Positions 43,279 through 63,702 of a DNA stretch of 64,000 bases are shown one piece after another. The stretch is from Gammaproteobacteria bacterium (lineage in GTDB: Bacteria; Pseudomonadota; Gammaproteobacteria; Pseudomonadales; JAUIET01), in the NCBI GenBank assembly GCA_030431775.1, contig JAUIHW010000001.1, positions 3,246-67,245 on the forward strand. The letters run 5' to 3'. The notes beneath the pieces are model-generated. The model worked only from the letters and a program-made list of their open reading frames with translations. It was not told where the DNA came from and did no database searches. Positions within the stretch are counted from its first letter, which is position 1, and each line of letters opens with the position of its first letter. The translations under genes and the position numbers were made by a program.

Positions 43279-44415
43279 TCACCAAAGCTCCTGGCTGGCC
43301 AGGGCAGCGCCTTGTGCCAAACTTTCGAGCTTGGCGTAAACGATGTCCTCATCGACAGCGCCAAAGCCTGCGAAGGTGGAAAAACCACAGTCCGTGCCTG
43401 CGATTACACGTTCGCGGCCAACGATATCAGCAAAGCGGCGGATGCGTTGCGCGACCAGCCGCGGGTGCTCAATAAAATTGGTGGTCGAATCAATAACGCC
43501 GGGAACCAGCAATAAGTCCTCAGGCAGGTTGGCCTCGGCAAATACCTCCCATTCATGGGCGTGTCGCGGGTTGGCGGATTCAAACAACAGAGCACCCACG
43601 TTCGCTTTGAGCGCAATCGGCAGCACCAGTTCCATGGGCGCATCGTGGTGGTGTGGGCCTTCGTAGTTACCCCAGCACACGTGCAGGCGCACCCGCTCTG
43701 GGCTGATGCCTTCCAAAGCGTGATTCAAGGCCTCCACATGCAAGTTGGCCAGCGCCTGGTATTCGGCTTCACTTTTACCTTTGAACAGCATGTGCCGGCC
43801 CAAGCCCAGGTCGGGCGAGTCCAGTTGCAGTACCAGGCCGGCGTCAACAATGGCCCGGTATTCGGCGGCCATCGCATCCGCCAGGGCTTGCAGGTATTGT
43901 TCGTGGCTAGGGTAATGACGGTTGGGCTGGAACAGCGCAATGACACCGGGGGAGGCCGCGTTCATAAAGCCCTCGGTGGCCGGTGTTGCCGCCAGAGCCT
44001 GAGTCATGTTGCGAATATCGTCCTCGGCCGGGCCCATGTCTTTGACACGAATATCGGCCACGCAGCAGGGCCGGGAATAGGTGGGTGTGCCGCCGGAGCT
44101 GGCCTGGCGTTCAAGAAAGCCCGGGAATTCCTCCAGGTCGCTGGGCGGCTGGCGTTCGCTGTCACCTTCAAAACCGGTGATGCGGTCTTTGATGTAAGTG
44201 GCGTAACTGATCTTGCTCATCTCGCCGTCGCTGACAATATCCACCCCTGTGCTGACCTGTTTGGCAACCACCTCCTTGACCGCCGCTGCAATAATGCTTT
44301 CGGCGTTATCCACCGGGGTGCCCTGTTCATGCCCAAACACCACGTCAGTAACGGCTTTGGAGCGTGGCAGGCTGCCTACGTGGGTGGTAAGAATACGGTC
44401 CGTACTGTGTTGCAT
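43279..44415 (-). CDS. Cobalamin-independent methionine synthase II-like (MetE C-terminal fold) Zn enzyme
   Basis: TTHVGSLPR, DGE..K, Zn ligands HVCWGN and DCGF; 378 aa, single barrel. Confidence 0.85.
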   Translation of the reverse strand: MQHSTDRILTTHVGSLPRSKAVTDVVFGHEQGTPVDNAESIIAAAVKEVVAKQVSTGVDIVSDGEMSKISYATYIKDRITGFEGDSERQPPSDLEEFPGFLERQASSGGTPTYSRPCCVADIRVKDMGPAEDDIRNMTQALAATPATEGFMNAASPGVIALFQPNRHYPSHEQYLQALADAMAAEYRAIVDAGLVLQLDSPDLGLGRHMLFKGKSEAEYQALANLHVEALNHALEGISPERVRLHVCWGNYEGPHHHDAPMELVLPIALKANVGALLFESANPRHAHEWEVFAEANLPEDLLLVPGVIDSTTNFIEHPRLVAQRIRRFADIVGRERVIAGTDCGFSTFAGFGAVDEDIVYAKLESLAQGAALASQELW

Positions 44416-44438
44416 TAGTGTGCTCCTTGGATGTGCTG

Positions 44439-45200
44439 TTATTGTGCGGTCCAGCCGCCGTCAACTCGCAGGCTGGTTCCGGTGATCAGGGCTGACGCGT
44501 CCGAGGCCAGGTAGACGACGGCGTTGGCTACATCGGCCGTTTGGCCGACCTTGCCCATGGGAATGCGCTGCAGCACAAAGTCTGCAAAGTCTTTATTGGC
44601 CAGCATCGGCTCGGTCAATGGAGTGGTAATGAATGTTGGAGCGACCGAATTCACGCGGATACCTTGCGGGGCGAGTTCAACGGCCAGCGCTTTGCTAAAC
44701 CCTTCCAGTGCGTGTTTGGTTGCGCAGTATACGGTTCTACGAGGGCTCCCGACGTGGCCCATCTGGGAGGAGATATTGATGATGCTGCCGCTAATATCAT
44801 GGTCCAGCATGCCGCGCACTACCTGTTGTGTGGTCAGAAACACCGCGCGCACATTGAGGTTCAGCATGTTGTCCAGCACCTGCGTATCCACGTCGACAAA
44901 GTCCTGCGGTGTGTTCGTGCCCAGGTTGTTGACCAGAATGTCGATGCTTCCCAGCTCTGCTAACTGCTGCAAAAAGGCCTCACTGCTGGCGTCTGCCACC
45001 AGCATCTGAATACCATCGGCTTGGCTGCGCAGGCTCTCCAGGTCTTCGCGGGTGCGGGCCACGGCGATGACTTTGGCGCCGCATTGGGCCAGGCGCAGCG
45101 CGCATTCGCGCCCAATGCCTTTTCCAGCACCAGTGACCAGCGCGGTTTTACCGTGGAGCAGGGTGGCGTTGAATAATTCTATCGCTGACTTCGAATTCAA
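44439..45200 (-). CDS. SDR-family oxidoreductase
   Basis: TGAGKGIG, NISS, YCATK and VDGG motifs. Confidence 0.92.
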   Translation of the reverse strand: MNSKSAIELFNATLLHGKTALVTGAGKGIGRECALRLAQCGAKVIAVARTREDLESLRSQADGIQMLVADASSEAFLQQLAELGSIDILVNNLGTNTPQDFVDVDTQVLDNMLNLNVRAVFLTTQQVVRGMLDHDISGSIINISSQMGHVGSPRRTVYCATKHALEGFSKALAVELAPQGIRVNSVAPTFITTPLTEPMLANKDFADFVLQRIPMGKVGQTADVANAVVYLASDASALITGTSLRVDGGWTAQ

Positions 45201-45288
45201 GAGAAAGGCGAGCTCTTTATACTAGTTTATGGACAATTATACGGTTGTTTGCCAAGGCATACCAGATCATTTATTGCATTCGAAGTCA
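45186..45288. promoter_or_regulatory. Two putative LacI-family operators at the SDR/hisD-like divergent promoter
   Basis: TGACTTCGAATTCA (45186-45199) and TGCATTCGAAGTCA (45275-45288). Confidence 0.7.
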
Positions 45289-45360: not shown

Positions 45361-46647
45361 ATGATTAGAAAATTGAAAGAAGGCATTGACGGCGATGTGG
45401 CGGCAGACAATGACGCCAAGGTTCGCGGTATTGTGGAAGGCATTCTGGCGGAAATTGAACAACGCGGGGATGCCGCTGTCCAGGAGTACGCGGCCAAGTT
45501 TGACGGCTGGGCGGGCGAGCCGCTGCGGCTTTCCCGCGAGCACATTGATGCCTGTTACGAACGCCTGGACCCGCAGGTCATCGACGATATTCGTTTTGCT
45601 CAGGAACAGGTAGGCAACTTTGCCCGCATTCAGCGTGAGGCATTGCAGGATGTTGAAGTGGAAACCCTGCCCGGGGTAGTGCTGGGCCACAAGAACATTC
45701 CGGTGAACAGCGTGGGCTGCTATGTGCCTGGAGGTAAATACCCATTGGTGGCGTCGGCGCATATGAGTGTGGTGACCGCCAAGGTAGCCGGCGTGAAGCG
45801 CATCATTGCCTGCGCCCCACCATTTCAGGGTGAGCTAAACCCGGCCACAGTCGTGGCCATGGATATGGCCGGCGCCGATGAAATTTATTGTGTTGGTGGC
45901 GTGCAGGCGGTGGGCGCCATGGCCCTTGGCACAGAAACGATTGACAGTGTGGATATGTTAGTGGGCCCGGGCAATGCCTTTGTGGCCGAAGCCAAGCGCC
46001 AGCTGTTTGGCCGGGTGGGCATCGACCTGTTCGCCGGGCCCACTGAGACGCTGGTGATCGCCGATGACACCGTTGATGGTGAGCTTTGTGCCACTGATTT
46101 GCTCGGCCAGGCCGAACACGGTCCGAATTCGCCGGCGATATTGCTGACTAATTCTGAAGCACTGGCGCGTGACACGATGGCTCAGGTAGAAGAGCAGCTA
46201 AAAACGCTGGCGACTGCCGAAATAGCCGGCCAGGCCTGGAGAGAGTACGGTCAGGTGATTGTCTGCGACAGCTACGAAGAAATGCTGCAGGTGGCGGATG
46301 AAATCGGCTCCGAGCACGTGCAGGTTATGACCAAAGACCCGAACTACTTCCTCGACAATATGACCAATTACGGCGCCTTGTTTCTCGGCCCTGAGACCAA
46401 TGTGTCTTACGGCGACAAATGCGTCGGTACGAATCATACGCTACCGACTAAAAAGGCTTCGCGGTATACTGGTGGCCTTTGGGTAGGAAAATTCATAAAA
46501 ACCTGCACCTACCAGCGCCTGACTGAAGACGCTTCGCACCACATCGGCCAATATTGTTCGCGGTTGTGCGCGGTGGAAGGTTTTGCTGGACACCAGGCGC
46601 AGGCGGATATCCGTGTGAAGCGTTATGGTGAAAAACTCGGTAAGTAA
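45361..46647 (+). CDS. Histidinol dehydrogenase homologue (HpsN/sulfopropanediol dehydrogenase-like, probably non-biosynthetic)
   Basis: [31 protein letters not shown] and [14 protein letters not shown] replaces the canonical HisD GDY, as in HpsN, and no other his genes are nearby. Confidence 0.8.
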
Positions 46648-47674
46648 CTCTGCAGGAACTGCGCATGGAAAGCGAGGTCGGCGGGCCACTTCTTATGATG
46701 TCGCGAGGGTCGCCGGCGTGTCGCAATCGGCGGTGTCACGCTGTTTTAAACCCGGCGCCAGCATTTCCGCCAAAACCCGCGCCAAGGTGGAAAAAGCCGC
46801 CCGACAATTGGGTTATCAGCCGAACGCAATCGCCCGTGGCTTGATTACCCGACGCTCGAATATTGTCGCCGTCATCATCAGTGAACCCACCAACCTGAAT
46901 TACCCGGAAGTGTTGTCGCAACTGAACCGGCGTCTGGGCGAACGCCAGGTGCACATTCTGTTGTTCACGCTCAGCCGTGAGCGCGACGTGAACCTGGCGC
47001 TGGATCAGGTATGGCAGTATCAGGTGGATGGCATCATTGCCGCCGCCCAGTTTACTGCTGAGCAGATCGCTGCCTGCGAGGACCGCGGCATACCGCTGGT
47101 CTTTTACAACCGGGTGTATACCCAGCAGGGTGTGTCGGCGGTGTGTTGTGATCACGCTGACGGCGAGCGGCAACTGATTGAAGGTCTGCTGAGCAATAAA
47201 CGCAAGAACTTTGTGGTGATGAGTGGCCCGGCGGACTCTGCCGTCAGCACCGCTCGTACCAAGGGCGCGGTTACCCGCCTTAAGCAGGAGAAGGTGAATC
47301 TGATGCAGGTGGCGGGCGACTACAGTTACGAAAGTGCCGTGGAGTGCGTGCACGAAGTGATGAGTACAAAGAAATTTTCCCCGGATGCCTTTGTGTGCGC
47401 CAATGACACCATGGCCATCGGTTGCATCGATACGCTGCGCCATGACTATGGAGTAGCCGTGCCCAAGGACATTGCGGTGGTCGGTTTTGATGGCGTAGGC
47501 GCGGCCGCCTGGTTGAGTTATGACTTAACCACGGTGGTGCAACCGGTGCAGCGCATGGTGGAAGCGGCGGTGAATATGCTGCTGGAGCGCGTGGAGGACG
47601 ACTCAATTCCTGCAGAAACCCGCCTGTTTGCCGGCCAATTGCGGCTGGGTTCAAGTGCACAACTGGAAGCCTGA
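46625..47674 (+). CDS. LacI-family transcriptional regulator
   Basis: [33 protein letters not shown] hinge, CAND.MA.G and VVGFDG. Confidence 0.95.
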
Positions 47675-47677: not shown

Positions 47678-48475
47678 ATGACGCCCGCAAGCAATGCCGC
47701 TACCTTTCGCCACCAGTTGCTCACAGGCGAATGCCTGATTGGTACATTTGTCAAAACACCGTCGATGATGATTGCCGAAGTGCTGAGTCAAACCGCGTTG
47801 GATGTGGTCTGCATCGATGCTGAGCACAGCCCATTCGACCGCGCGGCCATCGACGCGAGCCTGCTGGCTTACCGAAGTGGCGGCATGCCGGCGCTGGTGC
47901 GTGTTCCCAGTGCCGCACCGGAACAGATTCTGAATGCGCTGGATTGTGGGGCCAATGGCGTGGTGGTGCCCCACGTTGACAGCGTTAGCAAGGCCGAGGC
48001 TGTGGCGCAGGCCGCACAGTACGGCGATTGCGGGCGAGGCTATGCGGGCTCAACCCGGGCAGCGGCTTACGGGGGCAACTCACTGGCTGACAACCTGCAG
48101 GCCGCGCGTGAAAGCACCGTAGTGATTGCTCAAATAGAAGATCTGCCGGCGCTTGATTGTATTGATGAGCTGGCGGCGGTGCAGGGGCTCGACTGTCTGT
48201 TCATCGGCACCATGGACCTAACGGTCGCACTGGGCAAAAGCAGCCCGAACGAACCGGAGGTTATTGCGGCGATGGAATCGGTATGTGACGCCGCCCGACG
48301 CCATCAACGCCGCACCGGTTTGTTCATTCCGTCTGCGGACCAGATTCCGTTCTGGCTGGAGCGCGGTGTCAGTTTGTTTCTGATGGCTTCCGACCACGCG
48401 TTTATCAAGCAGGGTGCGGCGGGTCTCCACCAGGCAGCAGCGGCCGCATTCTCGGGTAGCAAAGAAACCGGCTAA
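47678..48475 (+). CDS. HpcH/HpaI class II aldolase
   Basis: IDAEHSP, LVRVP, ALD.GA.GV.VPH, AQIED and FIG..DL. Confidence 0.9.
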   Translation: MTPASNAATFRHQLLTGECLIGTFVKTPSMMIAEVLSQTALDVVCIDAEHSPFDRAAIDASLLAYRSGGMPALVRVPSAAPEQILNALDCGANGVVVPHVDSVSKAEAVAQAAQYGDCGRGYAGSTRAAAYGGNSLADNLQAARESTVVIAQIEDLPALDCIDELAAVQGLDCLFIGTMDLTVALGKSSPNEPEVIAAMESVCDAARRHQRRTGLFIPSADQIPFWLERGVSLFLMASDHAFIKQGAAGLHQAAAAAFSGSKETG

Positions 48476-49541: not shown

Positions 49542-49555
49542 TGCATTCGAAGTCA
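49542..49555. promoter_or_regulatory. Putative LacI operator
   Basis: TGCATTCGAAGTCA, identical to 45275-45288, in a divergent intergenic region. Confidence 0.75.
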
Positions 49556-49575: not shown

Positions 49576-50097
49576 ATGGCTGGTGCACGTCCCGAACAAG
49601 CATTACTTACTGCAGATAATGACCACAGCCAGAGCGCGGCGACCCTGGCCACCATTGATGCCATGGTGGATGGCCTGAACGATCATGACATCGACGGCAT
49701 GGGCCGCTTTTTTGCGGAGAGTTTTCGCTGGATGGGCAATGCCGGTTGCGGCTTCAAAAACGGCTTGCGGGAATTCCAGGAAAACTGGCAGCGTCCTTTT
49801 CAGGCCGCTTTTTCTGACAAGGTTTGCATCGACGAGGCGCGCATTGTGCAGGGCCAGTGGGCCGCTGCATTTGGCCGGCAGGAAGCTGTGCACAGCGGGC
49901 GCTTTATGGGCATAGAACCGACTTTCAAGAAAGTTGAAATTCGTTACATGGATTTCTGGAAGGTGGTTGACGGTAAGATTGTCGATAACTGGGTTATGGT
50001 GGATTTCCCCCATGTGATGCAGCAGTTGGGGGTGGACCCGTTCGGCGGTGAAGGCTGGGAGCAGTACGACAGCGAAGCGCGACCGAGTGCCGTGTGA
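49576..50097 (+). CDS. Single-domain SnoaL-like protein
   Basis: HSGRFMGIEPT.K.VEIRYMDFWKV.DGKIVDNWVMVD. Confidence 0.85.
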   Translation: MAGARPEQALLTADNDHSQSAATLATIDAMVDGLNDHDIDGMGRFFAESFRWMGNAGCGFKNGLREFQENWQRPFQAAFSDKVCIDEARIVQGQWAAAFGRQEAVHSGRFMGIEPTFKKVEIRYMDFWKVVDGKIVDNWVMVDFPHVMQQLGVDPFGGEGWEQYDSEARPSAV

Positions 50098-56013: not shown

Positions 56014-56027
56014 TGCATTCGAATGCA
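56014..56027. promoter_or_regulatory. Putative LacI operator (perfect palindrome)
   Basis: TGCATTCGAATGCA between divergent genes. Confidence 0.8.
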
Positions 56028-56072
56028 TCATACGTTATTTTGCGCGTTCAGTCAGTGCAGAGCCCAGATTTT

Positions 56073-58206: not shown

Positions 58207-59109
58207 TCAAATGACATAGAAGTTTGCGCAGCACTCTCGTTTTAGCGCTGCCTGTTCGTGTGCGCTGTACTGAGCAATCAATTCAAGATACGCCTGCCAC
58301 AATCGCTGGTAGTCGGTGTACAGCTTGTCGACCGGAAAGTTGGAACCCAGCATGCAGCGCTCCGGGCCGAAGGTGTCGATGACAGTTTCCACCACCGGGC
58401 GCAATGTCTCCACAGTCCAGTCGTGGTCGAACATCCCCAGCCCGGAAATCTTGCACACCGTACGCGGCAGGCTGGCCAAATCGCACAGGCCCTTGCGCCA
58501 CAGTGCCCAGCCCTCACGTTCGCGGTACCAGGGAGAGCCGGCGTGGCAGAGTGCCACTGGCAGTTCATCAACTTGCCGAAATACGCTGAAGGATTTTTGC
58601 ATCAGCTCCGGAATCAACTGCAAATCAAACCGCAAGCCCCGACCTTGCAACTCATGCAGGCCGCGCAACCAGGCTGGATTGTCCAGCAACTGTGCACTGC
58701 CGCTGTGGCGGTCTTCTTCCGGTGCGCGGCCGACAATCTGGCGTACACCGCGTAACGCGGGAAATTTCTCAAGCTGGTCCAGGCGATGACTGCGCTCCGC
58801 GCTTTCCAGCGCGCAGAAAGCAACCATCGCGCTGGGGAGTGGGGAGGTGTCTGCCATCTTCTGCACCCACTCGGCTTCGGCCAGGTGCTGGTCGTCAGCG
58901 GCACCCACTTGAATGTGCACACTTTTGCGAATCGGTAGCTCGCCGATGTCGTCTAACAGATCCTCTGGAAGGTAGTTCTTTTGAATCGGCGTAGGGTCGC
59001 CAAAAAAACGCTTGACGCCCCTGGCGGCTAACCAGGGGTAGTGTACGGCTTCCAGGTCCCAGAGATGGTGATGGGCGTCATAAATGCTTTCTGCGCCGCC
59101 GTCTTGCAT
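58207..59109 (-). CDS. Amidohydrolase_2 family (sugar-lactonase-like)
   Basis: DAHHHLWD, RGVRQ, CHAG.P, KISG and FGPERC.LGSNFPV. Confidence 0.85.
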   Translation of the reverse strand: MQDGGAESIYDAHHHLWDLEAVHYPWLAARGVKRFFGDPTPIQKNYLPEDLLDDIGELPIRKSVHIQVGAADDQHLAEAEWVQKMADTSPLPSAMVAFCALESAERSHRLDQLEKFPALRGVRQIVGRAPEEDRHSGSAQLLDNPAWLRGLHELQGRGLRFDLQLIPELMQKSFSVFRQVDELPVALCHAGSPWYREREGWALWRKGLCDLASLPRTVCKISGLGMFDHDWTVETLRPVVETVIDTFGPERCMLGSNFPVDKLYTDYQRLWQAYLELIAQYSAHEQAALKRECCANFYVI

Positions 59110-59111: not shown

Positions 59112-60170
59112 CTAGTCAGCTTCTGGGCGGGCGCGGTAAATTTCTGCGAGGATGGACAGCTCGTCAAACACCGTCCATTCTTCCACGATCTGACCGTCTA
59201 CAACATGATAGTGGCTTTCGGCCAGTATCAATACTTCGCTGCCTGTTGGTTCGCCCCACAGGGTCGGGCCAGTATGCAGGCCGCTGGCGGTCCAACGTAC
59301 CGCGACGTCCTTGCCACCGGCTTTGGCCGGTTGCTCGCAGCAGTAATCGGCGGAGAATCGCAGGTCTGACAGGGTACCAAGAAACTGGGTGTAGAACCGA
59401 ACAATGGCATCCTGACCTTCCAACTCGCGATTTGCAGAGGCGTGCAGCGTCGCGTTTGGCGCATACAACTGGTACACGTCACCCACCAGCCGGGCATTCC
59501 AGATGTTTTGCAGGCCGTTGCACACCTGCTCGCAAGCGCTACGGCTTGCAGCGCCCGGGTTACTGACTCGTGCCCGGTTTACCGTGTCGGCCAGGCGCTG
59601 TAATTCTTGCGCTTTCCAGTCCAGGAAACGGCTGTTGGGTGCTGTTTGTGCCTTCTTCCGCGCAAGTGCGAGCGGGTCAAAGCCGAGCTGTTCTGCCAGT
59701 GAGTAATTGTCACGGACCAGCCATTCCTCGATGACCTGGTTGTCTTTCACAACGCAGTGGGCGATTACCGCAATGGTGGCTTCCTTCGCGGTGGCCGGGC
59801 CAAAATCGGAGGGCCCAAGATTGGTCATGTGAGTTTTTATGCGATGCGAAGAATGAAAACCCTGTTGGTCATCGCCTCCCCAGATAATGTTGTCGGCGTG
59901 CAGCGTGCGGTCAGGAAACGCAGCCAGTGTGCTCAGGGTATTTTGTACGACCTCTTCAGCACCAATAGTGATGCCGGCCAGGGTGTACACCGGGCAGTAC
60001 GCAGAGTAGTAGTCATAACAGAGCCCAACCTGTTTACCTTCCCAAATGCGGTAAGTGATGCGCAGAATATAGTCGACAATATCAGTGAATTCAGGGTCAA
60101 AGCCCGCCATGCTGCCCTGGCCGTCCGTTGTAGGGGGCGCACTGTCGTAATGACTCTCTAATCTGTGCAT
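59112..60170 (-). CDS. Tandem SnoaL/NTF2-like protein (divergent subgroup)
   Basis: YILRIT.RIWE, AFPD, FGPAT, IEEWLVRD; second domain with VRW...G.H.G...GEPTG and VEEWTVFD. Confidence 0.8.
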   Translation of the reverse strand: MHRLESHYDSAPPTTDGQGSMAGFDPEFTDIVDYILRITYRIWEGKQVGLCYDYYSAYCPVYTLAGITIGAEEVVQNTLSTLAAFPDRTLHADNIIWGGDDQQGFHSSHRIKTHMTNLGPSDFGPATAKEATIAVIAHCVVKDNQVIEEWLVRDNYSLAEQLGFDPLALARKKAQTAPNSRFLDWKAQELQRLADTVNRARVSNPGAASRSACEQVCNGLQNIWNARLVGDVYQLYAPNATLHASANRELEGQDAIVRFYTQFLGTLSDLRFSADYCCEQPAKAGGKDVAVRWTASGLHTGPTLWGEPTGSEVLILAESHYHVVDGQIVEEWTVFDELSILAEIYRARPEAD

Positions 60171-60221: not shown

Positions 60222-61259
60222 TTAAACGAAGCGGGCCGCCTCAGGATAGTCGCCACGGCGAACCACAATCACATCCGCTGGCTGTTGCGCACTGTTCCAG
60301 TAGCGGCGTTGCATGCCCACCGGGCAGGTGAACAGGTCACCCTTGCCCAGAGTGAAGTCACTCTCCGGTGTACTGACCTGCAACTCACCGGATTGTACGA
60401 TCAGAACTTCTTCTTCGGCGCGAGTATGGAACGGTATGTCGGCCTGGGCTTCCAGCAGCAGGCGCCGCACACAGAAGCGGTGAGGCCAGGCCATTTTACC
60501 GGCACCGATGCCTTCTGCCGGGTTGTCCTGCCCAATTACCGCGATTTCCGTCACACCCGGTAAGGAACTCAGGCCGCCACAGTGGCCGGACTGCAATTCG
60601 GCGGAGGTCATCACACACTGACCCATTTCTTCAACACTGAGCCGCTTGAACGTTGCCAGCTCTTCGGTGCTGCTGGGCTTGGCTTCCTCGCCGTCTTCAG
60701 GGATGGTTTGCCCCGCGGCGGTATCGATCAGCCGGCCGTCTTCCAGCAGTATCAGGCCGTGCTCTTTGGCGGCTGAAAACACATAGGGCGCCCAAATGAC
60801 ATGGCCGGCCGTGCCGTCGGCGTTTTGCCCGAGCACGCTGAACAGCATACCGTCGTCTGAGCCGACGTTTTCAAAGCCGCGGAACAAATGCATGGGCAGG
60901 GAAATGGTATCGCCGGCACGCAGAACCTGCTGGCCGTCTGTGCCATTTTCTCCCCAGGTGAACAACCATTCGCCTTTATGCACCACAAACACTTCTTCGG
61001 TGTTGTGGCTGTGGTGCGAGTTTTTGCAGCCTTTCGGTTGCCGTGCACCGCCGATGTCAAAGCCATGCGGAATGGTGATATGCACCACCTGGTCCGGGTT
61101 TTCGGCCACGCCGGCCCCGATCAGACAGAAGTTTTCCTTCTTGTCGCTGCCGGGGGTGCGGGCATCAATAAAGGCGGTTTTGCAGGGCTCCATTTCTGCA
61201 TAGCGGAGCACTCGCTCACGAATTGGCAGGTCTGGTGTGCTGTTAACTTGTGGCTGCAT
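60222..61259 (-). CDS. Bicupin protein
   Basis: SHHSHNTEEVF..HKG.W and a second cupin motif H.RAEEEVL.VQSG.L...GDLF..P. Confidence 0.8.
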   Translation of the reverse strand: MQPQVNSTPDLPIRERVLRYAEMEPCKTAFIDARTPGSDKKENFCLIGAGVAENPDQVVHITIPHGFDIGGARQPKGCKNSHHSHNTEEVFVVHKGEWLFTWGENGTDGQQVLRAGDTISLPMHLFRGFENVGSDDGMLFSVLGQNADGTAGHVIWAPYVFSAAKEHGLILLEDGRLIDTAAGQTIPEDGEEAKPSSTEELATFKRLSVEEMGQCVMTSAELQSGHCGGLSSLPGVTEIAVIGQDNPAEGIGAGKMAWPHRFCVRRLLLEAQADIPFHTRAEEEVLIVQSGELQVSTPESDFTLGKGDLFTCPVGMQRRYWNSAQQPADVIVVRRGDYPEAARFV

Positions 61260-61268: not shown

Positions 61269-63521
61269 TCAAAACCGGTACTTGGCGCTAAGGCCCCAGG
61301 TTCGCGGGTTGTTCCAGTTAGTTTGTATGGAGGCGATATCAGGTGCTGCACCCGGATTAAAAACCACCGAGCGCGTCATCACTTCCTCCTCCCCGGCGTT
61401 CAATACAAAGGCTTCAACAGTTAAGGCCTCGTTCGCCGCTGCCCAGACCAGGCGTAAATCGGTTTGTACGTAAGCATCTTGCAAAGCGCCGTCAACATTG
61501 ATATCGAAACTGTAGTACTCATCAGAATACGCTAATTGCACAATCGGTGTCAGCGTGCTTCCGCCAGCCAGCGTAAAGTCGTAACTGGCCTGTACGCTTG
61601 CCGTCCATTCTGGTGACAAGGCGGGCGCCCAGCCCTTGAGGCTTAGCAACGGTGAGTCGCCACCCTGTCGGCCACCCAGGTCGCCCAGGCCTGCCACTCT
61701 GGAAATATTGTACTCGCCGAATTCAGCATCCATATAGGCCAGTGTTCCCTGGATTCGCCAACGCTCAGTGGGTAGCCAGGTCGCTTCCATCTCGACTCCG
61801 AAGGTGTCAACTTCGCCGCCACTTTCTGTGAATTCCGAAACCACTTCATTAAGCACAACAAAAGACTGTGCCTGCATGTCTTCGTACTGATTTAGATAAG
61901 TGGCAATATTGAATATCAGAGTATTGTCGGCCCACATGCTCTTATAGCCAAGCTCGTAAGCGGTGACCGTTTCAGGGTCATAGGTGAGCGGAATTCCATC
62001 TGCTATAAAGTTAATGCCACCCGCACGATAACCGGTAGAGGCTTGCAGATACAGCATGGAGTCTTCAGTTAGATCGTACTCTACGCCCGCTTTCCACAGC
62101 GTGTCATTCCAATCCCCTTTTTCTCCGGTGCCTGGCGCCGGCACTGGAGGAAAAACGCTCCAGTCGAGTTGGTTCTTTTTCTGTTTTTCATCTTCGGCAT
62201 AACGCAGGCCGCCAACCAGCCGCACACTGTCTGTCAGGCTATAGGTAGCGTGGGCGAATACTCCGAACGATTCTGACGTGTACTCGCCTACACGATCCCA
62301 ATGTGGAGTTGTGAATTGGCCATTGTCACGTTCCAGCCAACCCCATGTGCTTTCTTGTTCGTAGAAGTAGATACCGGCCAGCCAGTCCAGATTGCCATCA
62401 CCATTGGAAACCAGCTGTAATTCGGTTGACCAGGTGTCCTGGTCTGACTCCCAACCGGTGAAGCCATTGTTCAGCGGATCGCCACCGTCGGAGTAGTCGG
62501 AATCATAGTTTTGATCGCCCTCGAAATCGGTCAGGTTCCCCACAAACTTGAGTGTGGCGAAGCCCATGTCCCAGTTCGCATGCAAGGTATAGGAAAGGCT
62601 TTCATTGTTTGCATTCGACGGCAGGTTGCGACGAACCTCCCACGGACCATTATCAAAATTATCAGACGCGTCGGCAGGGGCCCACTGATGCCCGTCACGG
62701 TATGTGCCGTCAATATAGGCGCCAGTCTGCTGGTAACCCCAAATGGCCGAGCCCTTGTTCTTGCGGTCCATATACGCAATACGCAGGGTGATATCCATTG
62801 CGTCACTCGGCGCCCAGCGCGCGGTGGCTCGCAAGTAGGACAGGTCACGATCACGAAGGTCGTCCACTCCGGGGAATGAGTTCTCTATGTAACCGTCATG
62901 TTTATCCACCATACCCGCGACTCGAACGGCAAAGGTGTCACTGAGAGGCACGTTAACGGCACCTTCGAGCTTGGTTCGATCATAGTCGCCGTACAAGCCG
63001 CTGATGTAGCTGGAAACTTCTTCAAAGTCGGGCGCATTGGTGTGAATGTTCACGGTTCCACCAAAAGTGTTTCGGCCATACAAGGTGCCTTGAGGGCCAC
63101 GCAACACTTCTATTCGAGCCAGATCAACATACGAGCCCAATGCTTGGGTAGTTGTCGGTACATAGACGCCGTCTTCAAAGATACCGATAACCTGCTCGGC
63201 TTCGGTGCCCACGTTATTGGTTCTGGTGCCTCGGATCGCCAGGCGCACTTCATCACCCGATTGCCCGTAGCGCATACCCGGCACGAGATGTTCCAGCCGG
63301 GAAATATCCTCGATGCCGGCCCGGGCAAGGTCTGCCGCATTAAATGCACTGACTGACACAGACACGTCCTGGATGCTGACCGCGCGTTTAGTGGCTGTCA
63401 CTACGACTTCCTCTAACATGCGTGATTGGTCCTGCGCAACGGTAACAGAGCTGCTAACGGCCAATGCCAGTGACACAGCGGAAGACAGAGAGTTGCGACG
63501 GAATGAGGATTGGACAGTCAT
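61269..63521 (-). CDS. TonB-dependent receptor
   Basis: Signal peptide, TonB box LEEVVVTATKR, IEVLRGPQGTLYGRNT.GG plug and C-terminal PRTWG...YRF. Confidence 0.95.
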   Translation of the reverse strand: MTVQSSFRRNSLSSAVSLALAVSSSVTVAQDQSRMLEEVVVTATKRAVSIQDVSVSVSAFNAADLARAGIEDISRLEHLVPGMRYGQSGDEVRLAIRGTRTNNVGTEAEQVIGIFEDGVYVPTTTQALGSYVDLARIEVLRGPQGTLYGRNTFGGTVNIHTNAPDFEEVSSYISGLYGDYDRTKLEGAVNVPLSDTFAVRVAGMVDKHDGYIENSFPGVDDLRDRDLSYLRATARWAPSDAMDITLRIAYMDRKNKGSAIWGYQQTGAYIDGTYRDGHQWAPADASDNFDNGPWEVRRNLPSNANNESLSYTLHANWDMGFATLKFVGNLTDFEGDQNYDSDYSDGGDPLNNGFTGWESDQDTWSTELQLVSNGDGNLDWLAGIYFYEQESTWGWLERDNGQFTTPHWDRVGEYTSESFGVFAHATYSLTDSVRLVGGLRYAEDEKQKKNQLDWSVFPPVPAPGTGEKGDWNDTLWKAGVEYDLTEDSMLYLQASTGYRAGGINFIADGIPLTYDPETVTAYELGYKSMWADNTLIFNIATYLNQYEDMQAQSFVVLNEVVSEFTESGGEVDTFGVEMEATWLPTERWRIQGTLAYMDAEFGEYNISRVAGLGDLGGRQGGDSPLLSLKGWAPALSPEWTASVQASYDFTLAGGSTLTPIVQLAYSDEYYSFDINVDGALQDAYVQTDLRLVWAAANEALTVEAFVLNAGEEEVMTRSVVFNPGAAPDIASIQTNWNNPRTWGLSAKYRF

Positions 63522-63655
63522 AACGGGGCACCTTTTGTGTAAGTAGAAGTACGTTTTGCTTTTGCTAGTTGTCTGGAATTAAGGCCTGTTATTGTGCTTC
63601 CTGGCACTCAAAACGGCCATTTCCATGGCGGTTCATGACCCAATGGGGTGACTTT

Positions 63656-63702
63656 GTACTTCGAATGCAAAAACATGTCAAGCGATTTGTACTGCGAATT
63701 CA
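63656..63702. promoter_or_regulatory. Two putative LacI operators upstream of the TBDR operon
   Basis: GTACTTCGAATGCA (63656-63669) and a weaker GTACTGCGAATTCA (63689-63702). Confidence 0.6.

What the first reader, a model, noticed from the sequence alone, without database searches (positions are those of the whole stretch)
43279..63702. Uncharacterised ~20-kb catabolic island built around an HpsN/HisD-like dehydrogenase and five SnoaL-like proteins
Seen: a TBDR, an SSS symporter and two lipoprotein hydrolases (uptake and periplasmic processing), plus bicupin, lactonase-like amidohydrolase, SDR, HisD-like dehydrogenase, HpcH aldolase, MetE-like Zn enzyme, five SnoaL/NTF2 proteins and LacI. 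Known: HisD-fold enzymes perform 4-electron alcohol-to-acid oxidation (HpsN acts on DHPS), and HpcH aldolases cleave 2-keto-4-hydroxy acids. The DHPS pathway genes hpsKLM and suyAB are not visible in this window. Inference: a pathway I cannot match to a described one, for a TBDR-imported, probably cyclic or polyhydroxylated metabolite such as an algal compound. The substrate cannot be read from sequence.
Basis: partly seen in the sequence, partly recalled or inferred. Interest (0 to 1): 0.75.

Follow-up and report, generated by a model that had tools for sequence, protein, structure and literature searches.

The report
Conserved uncharacterised catabolic regulon, NTF2-rich
A set of about 18 co-regulated genes, found in many marine and soil microbes, that most likely imports and breaks down a small polar natural compound by an undescribed route, possibly algal sunscreen molecules.

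Summary
Four of the five SnoaL proteins are tandem two-domain forms.

The set is a real unit. An operator core (TGCATTCGAA; full palindrome TGCATTCGAATGCA) sits in all four promoter regions of the cluster and nowhere else in 64 kb (5 matches, 0.21 expected). The same genes recur in shuffled order in other Gammaproteobacteria and on Roseobacter and Rhizobiales plasmids, and partly in Vibrio, a Firmicute and a haloarchaeon.

The HisD-like enzyme is nearer HpsN than HisD but lacks the sulfonate-binding histidine (0 of 120 relatives have it). By the published motif it is not a DHPS dehydrogenase.

My literature searches found no described pathway that matches.

Best reading: LacI-controlled catabolism in two modules. 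NTF2-type enzymes strip substituents; then come oxidation, demethylation, ring cleavage and a pyruvate aldolase. My favoured substrate, mycosporine-like amino acids, is chemical inference, about one chance in three.

The parts
43279..44415 (-). MetE-like Zn enzyme: C-terminal catalytic domain only, 378 aa
   Evidence: Pfam Meth_synt_2 E 5.4e-13. All NCBIfam methionine-synthase models score far below cut-off, best 100.6 against 406 bits. The HxC, E and DCG motifs are conserved in 7 of 7 cluster homologues, including the archaeal one. Second gene of the SDR operon.
44439..45200 (-). Short-chain dehydrogenase/reductase
   Evidence: adh_short_C2 E 1.2e-58. Only a generic SDR subfamily model reaches its cut-off. 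Homologues at 41-59% identity in 10 of 25 loci, not counting a 32% hit in the unrelated SSS locus L012.
45186..45288 (.). Control region between the divergent SDR and HisD-like operons, with operator sites at 45186-45199 and 45275-45288
   Evidence: TGCATTCGAA exact at 45275; the 14-mer has 2 mismatches at 45275 and 3 at 45186. The same motif sits between SDR and HisD-like in L007 (3887).
45361..46647 (+). HisD/HpsN-family NAD- and Zn-dependent dehydrogenase of a third, His126-less clade (ORF opens at 45229; likely start 45361, 428 aa)
   Evidence: Histidinol_dh E 6.6e-143. The identical 428-aa database protein covers 91% of the longer ORF. 406 bits to solved HpsN against 276 to HisD. Motif G-G-K-Y-P-L where HpsN has G-R-Y-A/S-H. 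The EH and DK catalytic motifs are kept.
46625..47674 (+). LacI-family repressor
   Evidence: LacI HTH E 8.2e-14 plus Peripla_BP domains. No NCBIfam equivalog reaches its cut-off.
47678..48475 (+). HpcH/HpaI class II pyruvate aldolase
   Evidence: HpcH_HpaI E 2.4e-26. Nearest solved structures are 2-dehydro-3-deoxyglucarate and HpaI aldolases, E about 1e-29. Alphaproteobacterial clusters carry an RraA-family protein instead, and L001 has both.
48472..49488 (-). Tandem SnoaL/NTF2 protein A (338 aa)
   Evidence: SnoaL with two stretches, E 7.2e-19. Clade A in the tree together with L001 and L002.
49542..49555 (.). Operator site between divergent dSnoaL_A and sSnoaL_B
   Evidence: TGCATTCGAAGTCA. 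The same position carries the motif in L001 (9236).
49576..50097 (+). Single-domain SnoaL protein B (173 aa)
   Evidence: SnoaL E 6e-20. 70-84% identical from Gamma- to Alphaproteobacteria, where it directly precedes the HisD-like gene. Aligned to SnoaL 1sjw, chain positions 119 and 121 read N and V.
50160..51767 (+). Sodium:solute symporter (inner-membrane uptake)
   Evidence: SSF E 4.1e-49. Homologues at 54-88% identity anchor loci L001-L008.
51764..52633 (+). Lipoprotein alpha/beta hydrolase 1 (289 aa; start overlaps the SSS stop by 4 bases)
   Evidence: Hydrolase_4, Peptidase_S9 and DLH hits. Translation shows the signal peptide with LAAC lipobox and GHSMG. Homologue only in L001.
54571..56031 (-). 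Lipoprotein alpha/beta hydrolase 2 (486 aa)
   Evidence: No Pfam or NCBIfam hit. VSAC lipobox and GHSQG are read. Homologues at 42-43% in L002 and L007 and a fragment in L003.
56014..56027 (.). Perfect palindromic operator between divergent ABH2 and dSnoaL_C
   Evidence: TGCATTCGAATGCA with 0 mismatches.
56073..57116 (+). Tandem SnoaL protein C (ORF opens at a TTG at 56013, inside the operator; the ATG at 56073 is the likelier start)
   Evidence: SnoaL with two stretches, E 7.6e-21. Clade C, 5 rows, support 100/100, with V. pelagius and Roseobacter members.
57178..58194 (-). Tandem SnoaL protein D, the most widespread member
   Evidence: Clade D, 15 rows, support 100/100. A D homologue is present in 18 of the 25 loci, including the minimal Vibrio, Phaeobacter and Proteocatella modules. 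6692 homologues at E <= 0.001. AF2 model with pLDDT 86.7 shows two NTF2 folds.
58207..59109 (-). Amidohydro_2 hydrolase, lactonase-like
   Evidence: Amidohydro_2 E 9.7e-25. Nearest model is L-fucono-1,5-lactonase, 108 against a cut-off of 400 bits. Nearest solved chain is 4dlf, E 2.6e-15; I recall this as the L-fucono-1,5-lactonase, since the call names it only 'Amidohydrolase 2'. No other chain besides 6uvz reached E <= 0.001.
59112..60170 (-). Tandem SnoaL protein E
   Evidence: SnoaL E 4.7e-27. E superclade, 15 rows, support 100/100.
60222..61259 (-). Bicupin, probably a metalloenzyme
   Evidence: Cupin_2 with two stretches and Cupin_1. The N-domain H-x-H-x3-E motif is kept in 9 of 9 cluster homologues; the C-domain motifs are not kept. 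AF2 pLDDT 94.1. Foldseek TM 0.5-0.57 to MncA, oxalate decarboxylase, quercetin dioxygenases and seed globulins.
61269..63521 (-). TonB-dependent receptor, first gene of the minus-strand operon TBDR-bicupin-E-amidohydrolase-D
   Evidence: Plug plus barrel. 9-base gap to the bicupin. Only 31-34% identical to the TBDRs of related loci.
63656..63669 (.). Operator site upstream of the TBDR operon
   Evidence: TGCATTCGAA exact on the minus strand at 63660-63669. A weaker second copy near 63690 was seen.

Best explanation
This is a LacI-repressed regulon of seven transcription units that takes up and degrades a small, polar, non-phosphorylated organic compound. It works in two modules.

Shown here:
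- gene content
- conserved metal and catalytic motifs
- a shared operator
- co-conservation of the genes
- the upper module existing alone in some organisms

Inferred upper module. The compound crosses the outer membrane through the TBDR. Two lipoprotein alpha/beta hydrolases may trim it in the periplasm. The SSS symporter brings it into the cell. Cofactor-free NTF2/SnoaL-type enzymes then remove substituents by addition-elimination of water. Protein D is the universal one; E, C, A and the small B are the others.

Inferred lower module.
- The HisD/HpsN-type enzyme oxidises a hydroxymethyl group that sits beside a hydroxyl-bearing carbon to a carboxylate, using 2 NAD+.
- The MetE-like Zn enzyme moves a methyl group from the substrate to a thiol such as homocysteine.
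- The bicupin metalloenzyme opens the ring.
- The SDR and the lactonase-like amidohydrolase adjust and hydrolyse the product.
- The HpcH aldolase (RraA-type in Alphaproteobacteria) splits a 4-hydroxy-2-oxo acid into pyruvate plus a second central metabolite.

Substrate I commit to: mycosporine-like amino acids and their 4-deoxygadusol/gadusol core.
- The NTF2 enzymes would hydrolyse the imine-linked and enaminone-linked amino acids, releasing Ser, Thr or Gly.
- MetE-like would remove the C2 methoxy methyl.
- HisD-like would oxidise the C5 hydroxymethyl.
- Dioxygenolytic cleavage of the resulting reductone would give 4-carboxy-4-hydroxy-2-oxoadipate.
- That product is the classical substrate of RraA-type and HpcH-type aldolases, and yields pyruvate plus oxaloacetate.

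Likelihoods: two-module catabolic regulon about 0.85; mycosporine substrate about 0.35.
For: Unit and regulation.
- TGCATTCGAA gives 5 matches at 4 sites against 0.21 expected, and 0 of 100 shuffles reach 5. Every site lies in a promoter region of the cluster.
- The motif recurs in intergenic regions of the homologous clusters in L001, L002, L003 and L007: 8 of the 10 matches found in the then 23 loci.

Co-conservation. 18 of the 25 fetched loci hold a D homologue (best hit D, 47-77% identity). Fifteen of them were placed in clade D by the tree; L006 was left out of that tree, and L022, L023 and L024 were fetched later. Among these 18 loci:
- an E-type protein in 15
- LacI in 14
- HisD-like in 12
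- an aldolase (HpcH or RraA) in 11
- sSnoaL_B in 11
- the bicupin in 10
- MetE-like in 8
Gene order is shuffled between Gammaproteobacteria. The set is nearly complete on plasmids of Ruegeria, Marinovum, Paracoccus, Octadecabacter, Mesorhizobium and Ensifer. The three unrelated SSS loci L010-L012 hold none of the cluster's other genes apart from one SDR hit at 32% in L012.

Modularity. Transporter plus LacI plus SnoaL genes stand alone in V. europaeus, Vibrio sp. THAF191d, V. pelagius, Phaeobacter piscinae and Proteocatella.

Non-orthologous replacements that fit the assigned roles.
- HpcH is replaced by RraA.
- SSS/TBDR is replaced by a sugar-type ABC transporter.
- In Halobellus an HpcH-family aldolase, a VOC protein, an aldehyde dehydrogenase with an oxidoreductase, and an MBL hydrolase sit beside five SnoaL genes and MetE-like.

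Enzyme features.
- MetE-like Zn motifs are kept in 7 of 7 homologues and the bicupin N-domain motif in 9 of 9.
- The HisD-like protein keeps the EH and DK motifs.

For mycosporines.
[quoted passage not shown] It names no genes (passages of PMC3083659).
- In V. europaeus the SSS gene is followed after 11 bases by L-serine ammonia-lyase.
- Sarcosine oxidase and purU flank the V. pelagius module, and a GcvT-family gene lies in the Halobellus locus.
- Invariant Arg, Lys and His residues in protein D fit an anionic, carboxylate-bearing substrate.
- Source organisms include isolates from corals, shellfish, sea ice and a saltern. That such habitats, and red algae, are rich in mycosporines is recalled.
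Against: - No experiment bears on any step. The substrate assignment rests on chemical fit and a few neighbourhoods.
- V. harveyi, the species of the historical observation, is not among the named organisms in the 120 best relatives of the Vibrio-type D protein. The prediction was therefore not confirmed.
- D-type proteins at 74-98% identity (the top-120 range) also occur in Atlantibacter hermannii, Serratia fonticola, Cetobacterium, Ilyobacter and Clostridium grantii. Mycosporines are not an obvious nutrient for these organisms.
- The serine ammonia-lyase neighbour is seen in 1 of the 3 Vibrio contexts read; Vibrio sp. THAF191d has a photolyase there instead.
- LacI regulators, an SGLT-like SSS and sugar-type ABC transporters point to sugars as much as to cyclitol derivatives.
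- The SDR, the lactonase and the two periplasmic hydrolases have no compelling role in the mycosporine scheme.
- MetE-like is missing from complete-looking clusters in Paracoccus and Mesorhizobium.
- The four Halobellus tandem proteins are lineage-specific duplicates, not orthologues of A, C, D and E.
- Fold searches gave only generic NTF2 and bicupin matches, so no catalytic mechanism is shown.
- Each locus spans only 10-18 kb either side of its anchor, so an 'absent' gene may lie further away.
Confidence: 0.35

Rival explanations
1. The same two-module regulon, acting on another polar metabolite that carries a hydroxymethyl group on a hydroxylated (possibly tertiary) carbon. Candidates are a branched-chain sugar or sugar acid, a C7 cyclitol, or an opine-like or Amadori-like amino-acid conjugate. 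The substrate is still unknown.
For: Everything that supports the general model applies equally. LacI, an SGLT-like SSS and sugar-type ABC transporters are typical of sugar-like solutes. The D module is spread widely in enteric bacteria, Fusobacteria and Firmicutes, which suggests a commoner compound than mycosporines. The serine ammonia-lyase, sarcosine oxidase and GcvT neighbours fit any amino-acid conjugate.
Against: No concrete candidate explains, as mycosporines do, the combination of a MetE-like methyl-transfer enzyme, a HisD-type four-electron oxidation, many cofactor-free NTF2 enzymes and an RraA/HpcH aldolase. None of the known pathways for apiose, opines or Amadori compounds that I recall uses these families; this is recalled, not tested.
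Confidence: 0.35
2. A non-phosphorylative route for a deoxy or methylated sugar. The SDR oxidises the sugar to a lactone and the Amidohydro_2 lactonase opens it. A SnoaL protein stands in for the missing dehydratase. HpcH cleaves the 2-keto-3-deoxy acid to pyruvate plus an aldehyde. The HisD/HpsN-like enzyme oxidises that aldehyde to the acid, much as HpsN accepts sulfolactaldehyde.
For: The lactonase is nearest to L-fucono-1,5-lactonase. HpcH is nearest to 2-keto-3-deoxy sugar-acid aldolases. HisD-like, LacI and HpcH form one operon in the window. A section heading of PMC11382572 states that HpsN can use the aldehyde intermediate as substrate. NTF2-fold dehydratases such as scytalone dehydratase exist (recalled).
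Against: - No enolase-type or IlvD-type dehydratase was seen in the window or in the ORFs scanned in the loci.
- Ca. Foliamicus keeps HisD-like and MetE-like with four tandem SnoaL genes but has no aldolase, SDR or lactonase within 10 kb.
- The lactonase is present in only 5 of the 18 D-bearing loci.
- This route gives no role to MetE-like, to the bicupin, or to five NTF2 proteins.
- It does not explain the minimal modules that have neither SDR nor aldolase.
Confidence: 0.12
3. Catabolism of a methoxylated aromatic or phenolic compound through a gallate/protocatechuate-4,5-type lower pathway. MetE-like acts as O-demethylase, the bicupin as ring-cleaving dioxygenase, the Amidohydro_2 as a LigI/LigJ-type hydrolase or hydratase, and RraA/HpcH as 4-carboxy-4-hydroxy-2-oxoadipate aldolase.
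For: An RraA-family gene sits in the alphaproteobacterial clusters and in L001. The L001 RraA gives weak hits to the LigK/CHA-aldolase models, E 1e-4 to 7e-4. Bicupin ring-cleaving dioxygenases are well known (recalled), and quercetin dioxygenases are among the fold matches. A VOC protein and a GcvT-family protein, the family that I recall includes LigM, occur in the Halobellus locus.
Against: - The Amidohydro_2 matched only two solved chains at E <= 0.001, 4dlf and 6uvz. I recall 4dlf as a fuconolactonase; the call names neither as LigI or LigJ.
- The regulators and transporters are of the sugar type.
- HisD-fold enzymes bind substrates through an alpha-amino or alpha-hydroxyl group on the carbon next to the oxidised alcohol (passages of PMC11382572). 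A benzyl alcohol lacks this group.
- The D and E modules occur in strict anaerobes.
- This rival merges with the best explanation if the mycosporine core is aromatised to a gallate derivative.
Confidence: 0.08
4. A DHPS or related C3-sulfonate pathway, with the HisD-like protein acting as a true HpsN.
For: The best solved match is HpsN: 406 bits, about half the residues identical in the printed alignment. Source databases label many clade members 'sulfopropanediol 3-dehydrogenase'. Lys353 and the catalytic residues of HpsN are retained. HisD and HpsN show weak cross-activity on each other's substrates (passages of PMC11131964). L001 carries a sulfatase.
Against: The HpsN-defining motif G-R-Y-A/S-H, whose final His binds the sulfonate, reads G-K-[YF]-P-[LM] in 10 of 10 cluster copies and in 120 of 120 database relatives. 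No family I recognise as a sulfolyase or as hpsO/hpsP/TRAP appeared in the Pfam scans of the window's ORFs or in the annotation tables of the related loci.
Confidence: 0.03
5. Not one functional unit: neighbouring but unrelated genes.
For: The sigma-70 promoter scan found fewer sites than in shuffles (5 against 10.6) and terminator-like sites were at chance level. The HipBA insert and the non-orthologous TBDR show that the locus is a mosaic.
Against: The operator is shared by all four control regions. The genes are co-conserved across two proteobacterial classes in different gene orders.
Confidence: 0.02

Closest known systems
HpsN, R-DHPS 3-dehydrogenase (Cupriavidus pinatubonensis, PDB 8v35; a second solved (R)-DHPS dehydrogenase, 8wwe)
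   Same: Same PF00815 fold. It is the best solved match (406 and 378 bits). The catalytic Glu-His pair and the Asp-Lys of the second Zn loop are kept. The enzyme probably carries out the same four-electron alcohol-to-acid oxidation on a substrate chelated to Zn.
   Different: The sulfonate-binding His126 is Leu or Met, and the loop motif is G-K-[YF]-P-[LM]. There are no sulfolyase or DHPS racemase genes nearby. The gene is embedded in a LacI regulon with NTF2 enzymes.
HisD, L-histidinol dehydrogenase
   Same: Passes NCBI's hisD domain model (467 bits, cut-off 243.8). Shares Pro-Leu at the end of the loop motif with HisD's G-S-A-P-L.
   Different: Scores lower against solved HisD than against HpsN (276 against 406 bits). 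The context is catabolic, not a his operon. The start of the loop motif is HpsN-like (G-K-Y).
Lower pathway of protocatechuate 4,5-cleavage and gallate degradation (LigI, LigJ, LigK/GalC)
   Same: Ends, as proposed here, with a metal-dependent pyruvate aldolase. RraA-family genes replace HpcH in the alphaproteobacterial clusters. An Amidohydro_2 member and a metal-dependent ring-opening enzyme are present.
   Different: The Amidohydro_2 is closest to a sugar lactonase model, not to LigI or LigJ. There is no LigAB-type or GalA-type dioxygenase. The regulators and transporters are of the sugar type.
Tandem NTF2 epoxide hydrolase/cyclases of polyether biosynthesis (Lsd19, MonBI-MonBII) and SnoaL-type polyketide cyclases
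   Same: Two NTF2/SnoaL folds in one chain. These are the best Foldseek matches to the protein D model (E 3e-9 to 1e-7). Single domains superpose on SnoaL, IdmH and limonene epoxide hydrolase with target-normalised TM 0.6-0.79.
   Different: Whole-chain TM is only 0.31-0.40 and identity 11-12%. SnoaL positions 119 and 121 are not conserved in protein B. The context is catabolic rather than polyketide. There is no significant sequence match to any solved protein for D (best E 0.028).
Cobalamin-independent methionine synthase MetE and its short 'core' relatives
   Same: Meth_synt_2 barrel with His-x-Cys, Glu and Cys motifs intact. This implies a Zn-activated thiol acceptor.
   Different: It lacks the N-terminal folate-binding half (378 aa). 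All methionine-synthase models score far below cut-off. It is co-transcribed with an SDR inside a catabolic regulon, and no riboswitch was found.
Non-phosphorylative L-fucose/L-rhamnose-type pathways
   Same: An SDR, an Amidohydro_2 lactonase-like enzyme and an HpcH-type aldolase occur together.
   Different: No sugar-acid dehydratase is present. HisD-like, MetE-like, bicupin and five NTF2 proteins are added.

Membership tests
HpsN (DHPS 3-dehydrogenase) | PF00815 fold with closest similarity to characterised HpsN | tested here: met
   406.4 bits and E 1.4e-120 to 8v35; the best HisD scores 276 bits.
HpsN (DHPS 3-dehydrogenase) | HpsN-specific loop motif G-R-Y-A/S-H, whose last His (His126) ligates Zn and binds the sulfonate (PMC11382572) | tested here: not met
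   The window reads G-K-Y-P-L. 10 of 10 cluster copies read G-K-[YF]-P-[LM]. 120 of 120 database relatives read KYPL (117) or KFPM (3). The motif definition comes from passages read.
HpsN (DHPS 3-dehydrogenase) | Catalytic Glu318-His319 and Asp352(-Lys353) | tested here: met
   AEHG and GDK are conserved in the alignment to 8v35 and in 10 of 10 cluster copies.
HpsN (DHPS 3-dehydrogenase) | Genomic association with a sulfolactate- or cysteate-degrading sulfolyase (SuyAB, Xsc, CuyA) and DHPS transport or racemase genes | tested here: not met
   No family I recognise as one of these appeared in the Pfam scans of the window ORFs, in the gap ORFs of L001-L009, or in 10 annotated plasmid contexts. 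Genes further away cannot be excluded.
HpsN (DHPS 3-dehydrogenase) | Activity on R-DHPS | not testable with these tools
   Needs an enzyme assay.
HisD (histidinol dehydrogenase) | Score above the curated hisD model cut-off | tested here: met
   TIGR00069 467.2 bits against 243.8. Given the close similarity, solved HpsN would probably pass this domain model too (not tested), so the feature may not discriminate.
HisD (histidinol dehydrogenase) | HisD loop motif G-S-A-P-L and a histidine-biosynthesis context | tested here: not met
   The motif is G-K-Y-P-L. The neighbours are LacI, an aldolase and an SDR.
SnoaL polyketide cyclase | SnoaL/NTF2 fold | tested here: met
   PF07366 hits for all five proteins. 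The AF2 model of D shows two alpha+beta barrels, and single domains match SnoaL, IdmH and LEH.
SnoaL polyketide cyclase | Catalytic Asp121 with His119 of SnoaL (the residue roles are recalled from the SnoaL structure paper and come from no call) | tested here: not met
   In the alignment of protein B to 1sjw, chain positions 118-121 (D-H-R-D) face D-N-W-V. The equivalent segment reads E-N-W-V in 235 of 240 D-type relatives.
SnoaL polyketide cyclase | Polyketide synthase context | tested here: not met
   No PKS genes in the window or the loci.
MetE (cobalamin-independent methionine synthase) | C-terminal Meth_synt_2 barrel with the Zn ligands His, Cys, Glu, Cys (ligand identities recalled) | tested here: met
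   Pfam E 5.4e-13. H-x-C, E and D-C-G are conserved in 7 of 7.
MetE (cobalamin-independent methionine synthase) | N-terminal folate-binding domain and scores above the curated model cut-offs | tested here: not met
   378 aa with one domain only. Best NCBIfam score 100.6 against 406 bits; full-length MetE models score 18-21 bits against 541-930.
LacI-family regulon | HTH plus periplasmic-binding-protein-like effector domain, and a palindromic operator with central CG repeated before the regulated operons | tested here: met
   Domains. TGCATTCGAATGCA and its variants sit at four control regions, 5 core matches against 0.21 expected. That this LacI binds the operator is inferred.
Non-phosphorylative sugar-acid pathway | Dehydrogenase, lactonase, dehydratase (enolase or IlvD family) and 2-keto-3-deoxy-acid aldolase | tested here: not met
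   An SDR, a lactonase-like enzyme and an aldolase are present, but no dehydratase family was found.
LigI/LigJ/LigK-type lower pathway | PDC hydrolase or OMA hydratase of the Amidohydro_2 family, plus a CHA aldolase | tested here: inconclusive
   The aldolase role is filled by HpcH, or by RraA in relatives. The Amidohydro_2 matched only two solved chains at E <= 0.001, 4dlf and 6uvz, both named 'Amidohydrolase 2'. Its nearest curated model is a sugar lactonase.

The most novel reading that the evidence does not exclude
This cluster is the missing genetic basis for microbial breakdown of mycosporine-like amino acids and gadusols, the main UV sunscreens of algae, cyanobacteria, corals and fish eggs.

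- Tandem NTF2 proteins would form a new class of cofactor-free C-N hydrolases that release Ser, Thr or Gly from the chromophore. This step alone would be present in Vibrio, Fusobacteria and amino-acid-fermenting Firmicutes.
- A third branch of the HisD/HpsN family, a MetE-like O-demethylase that would make methionine, and a bicupin dioxygenase would convert the 4-deoxygadusol core to 4-carboxy-4-hydroxy-2-oxoadipate, and then to pyruvate plus oxaloacetate.
Probability: 0.35. Interest if true: 0.85.

Novelty: new variant of a known kind. Interest (0 to 1): 0.7.

Why it matters
- **A widespread unknown pathway.** The cluster is conserved across Gamma- and Alphaproteobacteria, with parts in Vibrio, Fusobacteria, Firmicutes and a haloarchaeon. 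Protein D alone has thousands of relatives in public data. A common environmental compound is therefore being consumed by a route nobody has described.
- **A likely annotation error in ocean surveys.** The HisD-like clade is routinely labelled 'sulfopropanediol 3-dehydrogenase' or 'histidinol dehydrogenase'. It scores 378-406 bits against solved HpsN. One ocean survey used a bit-score cut-off of 167 for HpsN (passage of PMC11131964). Such surveys may count this clade as DHPS consumers, although it lacks the sulfonate-binding residue. That would bias estimates of marine organosulfur cycling.
- **New enzymology.** The cluster offers three untested enzyme types: tandem NTF2 catabolic enzymes, a short MetE-like methyl or alkyl transferase, and a small bicupin family (732 representatives among 1.84 billion).
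- **If the mycosporine reading is right.** It would make the turnover of a major class of marine nitrogen-containing sunscreens testable for the first time. It would also explain a decades-old report of conversion by Vibrio.

Tried and rejected
- **Sequence search of protein D against solved structures.** Nothing significant; best E 0.028. Proteins B and E match only SnoaL-type cyclases.
- **Foldseek of the AF2 models.** D gave only generic NTF2 matches. The tandem Lsd19 and MonB proteins came first but with TM 0.31-0.40. The bicupin gave generic bicupins with TM 0.5-0.57. Neither result fixes a reaction.
- **ESM Atlas for D.** It returned only its own family, under automatic names.
- **PDB codes 8YSB and 8KAA in the literature.** Nothing relevant.
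- **Test of the mycosporine idea by looking for V. harveyi.** It is not among the named relatives of the Vibrio-type D protein in the best 120. This gives no support.
- **Unknown ORFs in the gaps of related loci.** No similarity to each other or to window proteins, and no NCBIfam hit for 9 of the 17 proteins scanned.
- **TBDR orthology across loci.** Rejected: 31-34% identity to the window's TBDR; only L001, L002 and L003 group together, at 44-49%.
- **'4+1 SnoaL genes conserved from Archaea to Bacteria'.** Rejected: the four Halobellus tandem proteins are lineage-specific duplicates.
- **Sigma-70 promoter and terminator scans.** No better than shuffles.
- **Rfam scan.** Only the tRNA; no riboswitch before the MetE-like gene.
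- **L004 and L008.** These loci have similar SSS genes but other neighbours (a PhyH dioxygenase; a Rieske/VanA-like oxygenase with a KstR-like regulator). They are only loosely related and carry no D protein.
- **HisD/HpsN/this-clade tree.** Not built, because no HpsN or HisD sequence was held as a stored protein.
- **Not examined.** Only one genome scan was allowed. No supplementary files were read.

Full report
**1. What is there**

In map order:
- MetE-like protein 43279-44415(-)
- SDR 44439-45200(-)
- HisD-like dehydrogenase (ORF from 45229; likely start 45361, matching an identical 428-aa database protein)
- LacI 46625-47674
- HpcH aldolase 47678-48475
- tandem SnoaL protein A 48472-49488(-)
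- single SnoaL protein B 49576-50097
- SSS symporter 50160-51767
- lipoprotein alpha/beta hydrolase 51764-52633
- HipB 52840-53175 and HipA 53145-54449
- a second lipoprotein hydrolase 54571-56031(-), with no family hit but GHSQG and a lipobox
- tandem SnoaL C 56073-57116
- tandem SnoaL D 57178-58194(-)
- Amidohydro_2 58207-59109(-)
- tandem SnoaL E 59112-60170(-)
- bicupin 60222-61259(-)
- TonB-dependent receptor 61269-63521(-)

It lies in the only compositional dip of the region (GC 0.50) and has no counterpart in any of the 25 loci fetched later. I take it to be a strain-specific insertion. The large Ig/NHL-repeat protein and the small lipoprotein upstream (37718-43275) show no link to the cluster.

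**2. Is it one unit? Regulation**

I read the intergenic regions and found a perfect palindrome, TGCATTCGAATGCA, between the divergent hydrolase-2 and SnoaL-C genes. Close variants sit at three other places:
- between the divergent SDR and HisD-like operons
- between divergent SnoaL-A and SnoaL-B
- upstream of the TBDR operon

The 10-base core TGCATTCGAA occurs 5 times at these 4 places and nowhere else in the 64 kb. Chance expectation is 0.21, and 0 of 100 shuffles reach 5. With up to 3 mismatches the 14-mer is not enriched (7 matches against 4.4 expected), so the statistical case rests on the core.

A 14-base palindrome with central CG is what LacI-family repressors bind (general knowledge). 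The four control regions cover all seven transcription units. The same core lies in intergenic regions of the homologous clusters of L001, L002, L003 and L007, accounting for 8 of the 10 matches found in the then 23 loci. One further match is at the start of a SnoaL ORF in L008, and one is inside xylA in L016.

Binding by this LacI is inferred. Generic promoter and terminator scans were uninformative, and Rfam found no riboswitch.

**3. Is it one unit? Conservation**

One genome scan with the SSS protein returned 12 loci.
- Eight are gammaproteobacterial or sphingomonad loci with SSS identity of 54-88%.
- One is a Proteocatella locus (34%).
- Three are unrelated SSS loci, which serve as controls.

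A tblastn map and ORF-based maps show the cluster genes around the SSS in L001-L003 and L005-L007, in different orders and orientations.

A tblastn of protein D against plasmids found 24 records. I read 13 of them; three of these carried no annotation and were mapped by BLAST. Five plasmids carry nearly the whole set, with a sugar-type ABC transporter in place of SSS/TBDR and an RraA-family gene in place of HpcH. They belong to Ruegeria conchae, Ruegeria sp. AD91A, Marinovum algicola, Paracoccus alcaliphilus and Octadecabacter arcticus. The set comprises the small SnoaL B next to HisD-like, a tandem SnoaL, SDR, LacI, a tandem SnoaL, cupin, MetE-like (absent in Paracoccus), a small alpha/beta hydrolase and RraA. 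Two of them also carry the amidohydrolase. Mesorhizobium and Ensifer carry most of the set.

18 of the 25 loci hold a D homologue. Counts among these 18:
- E-type protein: 15
- LacI: 14
- HisD-like: 12
- an aldolase: 11
- SnoaL B: 11
- bicupin: 10
- MetE-like: 8
- amidohydrolase: 5

Each locus spans only 10-18 kb either side of its anchor, so the misses are lower bounds. Loci were fetched through SSS or D, so the presence of those two genes is by construction.

**4. Two modules**

In five organisms the transporter(s), usually a LacI, and one to four SnoaL genes stand alone:
- Vibrio europaeus (SSS, MFS, D, porin, LacI)
- Vibrio sp. THAF191d (SSS, MFS, D)
- V. pelagius (four tandem SnoaL genes around an ABC transporter)
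- Phaeobacter piscinae
- the anaerobe Proteocatella (LacI, esterase, E, MFS, D, SSS)

These are documented.

A maximum-likelihood tree of 48 tandem SnoaL proteins (L006 was left out as a near-duplicate of L005) resolves four groups:
- a D clade of 15 rows, present in nearly every locus (support 100/100)
- an E superclade of 15 rows (100/100)
- a C clade of 5 rows (100/100)
- a small A clade

The four Halobellus proteins are lineage-specific duplicates.

D relatives are very conserved and very widespread. One search found 6692 hits, 62-78% identical in the listed best 120, in Halomonas, Zobellella, Exilibacterium and a Desulfosarcinaceae MAG. The Vibrio-type D has relatives at 74-98% identity in Psychromonas, Atlantibacter, Serratia, Endozoicomonas, Cetobacterium, Ilyobacter, Clostridium grantii and Acetoanaerobium.

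I conclude that the SnoaL enzymes act first and without oxygen. The remaining genes form a lower, oxidative module that only some organisms add.

**5. The individual enzymes**

*HisD-like.* The best solved matches are two DHPS dehydrogenases (406 and 378 bits), against 276 for the best HisD. The HpsN structure paper defines HpsN by the loop motif G-R-Y-A/S-H. Its last His ligates Zn and binds the sulfonate; HisD has G-S-A-P-L (passages of PMC11382572). The window protein reads G-K-Y-P-L. All 10 cluster copies read G-K-[YF]-P-[LM], and all 120 listed database relatives read KYPL or KFPM. The catalytic Glu-His and Asp-Lys are kept. This is therefore a third clade of the family. It probably still performs a four-electron oxidation of a primary alcohol that sits next to a Zn-chelating hydroxyl or amine, on a non-sulfonate substrate.

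*MetE-like.* It has only the C-terminal barrel and scores far below every methionine-synthase cut-off. It nevertheless keeps the H-x-C, E and D-C-G motifs in 7 of 7 homologues, including the archaeal one. That these are the Zn ligands of MetE is recalled.

*Bicupin.* The N-terminal H-x-H-x3-E motif is kept in 9 of 9 homologues. The usual motif-2 His is Arg in the invariant FRGFE segment, and the C-terminal domain has lost its motifs. The family is small: 732 representatives among 1.84 billion proteins. The model is confident (pLDDT 94.1) but matches only generic bicupins.

*Amidohydro_2.* Its nearest curated model is L-fucono-1,5-lactonase. Its nearest solved chain is 4dlf, which I recall as that enzyme.

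*HpcH.* It is nearest to 2-keto-3-deoxy-acid aldolases.

*Protein D.* It folds as two NTF2 barrels (pLDDT 86.7). It has many invariant Arg, Lys and His residues and no informative structural neighbour. Protein B lacks the residues aligned with SnoaL positions 119 and 121.

**6. Replacements that support the assigned roles**

HpcH and RraA are two unrelated families of metal-dependent pyruvate aldolases (general knowledge). Their exchange between versions of the cluster argues that a 4-hydroxy-2-oxo-acid cleavage ends the pathway. L001 has both families.

In the Halobellus limi plasmid, five SnoaL genes and MetE-like sit beside an HpcH-family aldolase, a VOC-family protein, an aldehyde dehydrogenase plus an oxidoreductase, an MBL-fold hydrolase, a GcvT-family protein and an ABC transporter. 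These could stand in for the bicupin, the HisD-like enzyme and the lactonase respectively. That is a reading of adjacency only.

**7. What substrate?**

My ten literature searches turned up no described pathway with this gene set. No paper in the library holds both 'mycosporine' and 'SnoaL'. The library lacks most subscription-journal papers.

The enzyme set asks for a compound with five properties:
- polar and sugar-like
- carrying substituents removable by water addition-elimination
- carrying a transferable methyl group
- carrying a CH2OH on a hydroxylated carbon
- able to yield a 4-hydroxy-2-oxo acid after ring opening

Mycosporine-like amino acids fit all five. They have imine-linked and enaminone-linked amino acids, a C2 methoxy group, and a C5 tertiary carbinol bearing CH2OH. 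After demethylation and oxidation, cleavage of the reductone would give 4-carboxy-4-hydroxy-2-oxoadipate, the textbook substrate of RraA-type aldolases. This chemistry is my own inference.

A review records that Vibrio harveyi hydrolyses shinorine and porphyra-334 to mycosporine-glycine, and that bacteria form 4-deoxygadusol. No genes are named (passages of PMC3083659). The minimal Vibrio module, with an importer, one NTF2 enzyme and an MFS that could export the remainder, would produce exactly that phenotype. In V. europaeus, L-serine ammonia-lyase follows the SSS gene after 11 bases.

Several results count against this reading.
- V. harveyi does not appear among the named relatives.
- The serine-lyase neighbour is seen in one Vibrio context only.
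- D occurs in enteric bacteria and in many anaerobes.
- The SDR, the lactonase and the periplasmic hydrolases have no clear role.

I therefore put the substrate assignment at about 0.35 and the general two-module model at about 0.85.

**8. Comparison with what is known, and novelty**

The cluster works like other LacI-controlled catabolic loci fed by a TBDR or ABC transporter, and it ends like the gallate/protocatechuate lower pathway. It is a member of none of the pathways I considered:
- it fails the defining HpsN motif
- it lacks a sugar-acid dehydratase
- it lacks Lig-type enzymes
- its SnoaL proteins lack the cyclase residues and any polyketide context

I class it as a new variant of a known kind of system, built from enzyme clades whose reactions are unknown.

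A practical consequence follows. This His-less clade is labelled hpsN or hisD in public data. It would pass the bit-score threshold of 167 used for HpsN in an ocean metatranscriptome survey (passage of PMC11131964; scores).

**9. Limits**

- Plasmid annotation tables are incomplete by design.
- No supplementary files were read.
- Papers were read as search listings plus 'find' passages only: PMC11382572, PMC12814064, PMC3083659 and PMC11131964.
- No HisD/HpsN tree was built.
- All mechanistic steps are inferred.

Noticed in passing
window 52840-54449: A HipB-like HTH antitoxin (111 aa) and a HipA-family kinase toxin (434 aa; HipA_C E 8.8e-50) are inserted between the two hydrolase genes. They lie in the only GC dip of the region (0.50). 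Neither has a counterpart in any of the 25 related loci.
   Followed up: partly
window 37718-43275: A 1549-aa protein with Big_9, Cadherin_5 and NHL repeats is followed, with overlapping stop and start, by a 303-aa lipoprotein with no family hit. It lies directly upstream of the cluster but shows no link to it.
   Followed up: no
window 21643-23971: A tRNA-Glu gene is followed by a 452-aa ORF with no family hit and by an IS200-type Y1 transposase. This may be an integration spot.
   Followed up: no
window 6245-18246: A BatA-D/MoxR/DUF58 'aerotolerance' operon lies next to a 1672-aa NAD-specific glutamate dehydrogenase.
   Followed up: no
window 63830-64000; L003 5721-7481; L007 16725-18623: An ORF that looks TPR-like to my eye (no scan was run) starts at the window's end, beyond the TBDR promoter. 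In L003 and L007, TPR plus sulfotransferase proteins sit next to the cluster's TBDR.
   Followed up: no
L001 11608-12650: The homologue of lipoprotein hydrolase 1 is split into two overlapping ORFs (240 and 116 aa). This is either a frameshift or an assembly error in that MAG.
   Followed up: no
L023 (Octadecabacter arcticus plasmid) 1035-7179 and 26571-27254: The complete cluster is bracketed by IS66, IS6 and IS5 transposases on a mobilizable plasmid. In the other Roseobacters read here the cluster is also plasmid-borne, so it is probably spread horizontally. The Proteocatella D protein is nearest to the Vibrio D proteins in the tree.
   Followed up: partly
HisD-like clade (window 45361-46647 and P0001-P0120): Source databases label members 'sulfopropanediol 3-dehydrogenase' or 'histidinol dehydrogenase'. 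An ocean survey used a bit-score cut-off of 167 for HpsN. This His-less clade scores 378-406 bits to solved HpsN, so it would be counted as hpsN.
   Followed up: partly
L022 (Vibrio sp. THAF191d) 6790-8304: A DNA photolyase gene lies next to the SSS-MFS-D module. This is curious given the sunscreen hypothesis, but it may be coincidence.
   Followed up: no
L024 (Ruegeria sp. AD91A) 3656-4258: A class I SAM-dependent methyltransferase is inserted between the cupin and MetE-like genes of an otherwise standard cluster.
   Followed up: no
L001 2824-7166 and 16946-19198: This version of the cluster also holds an S9 peptidase, a DUF5916 protein and a 750-aa sulfatase. This hints that decorated, for example sulfated, forms of the substrate are processed there.
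   Followed up: no
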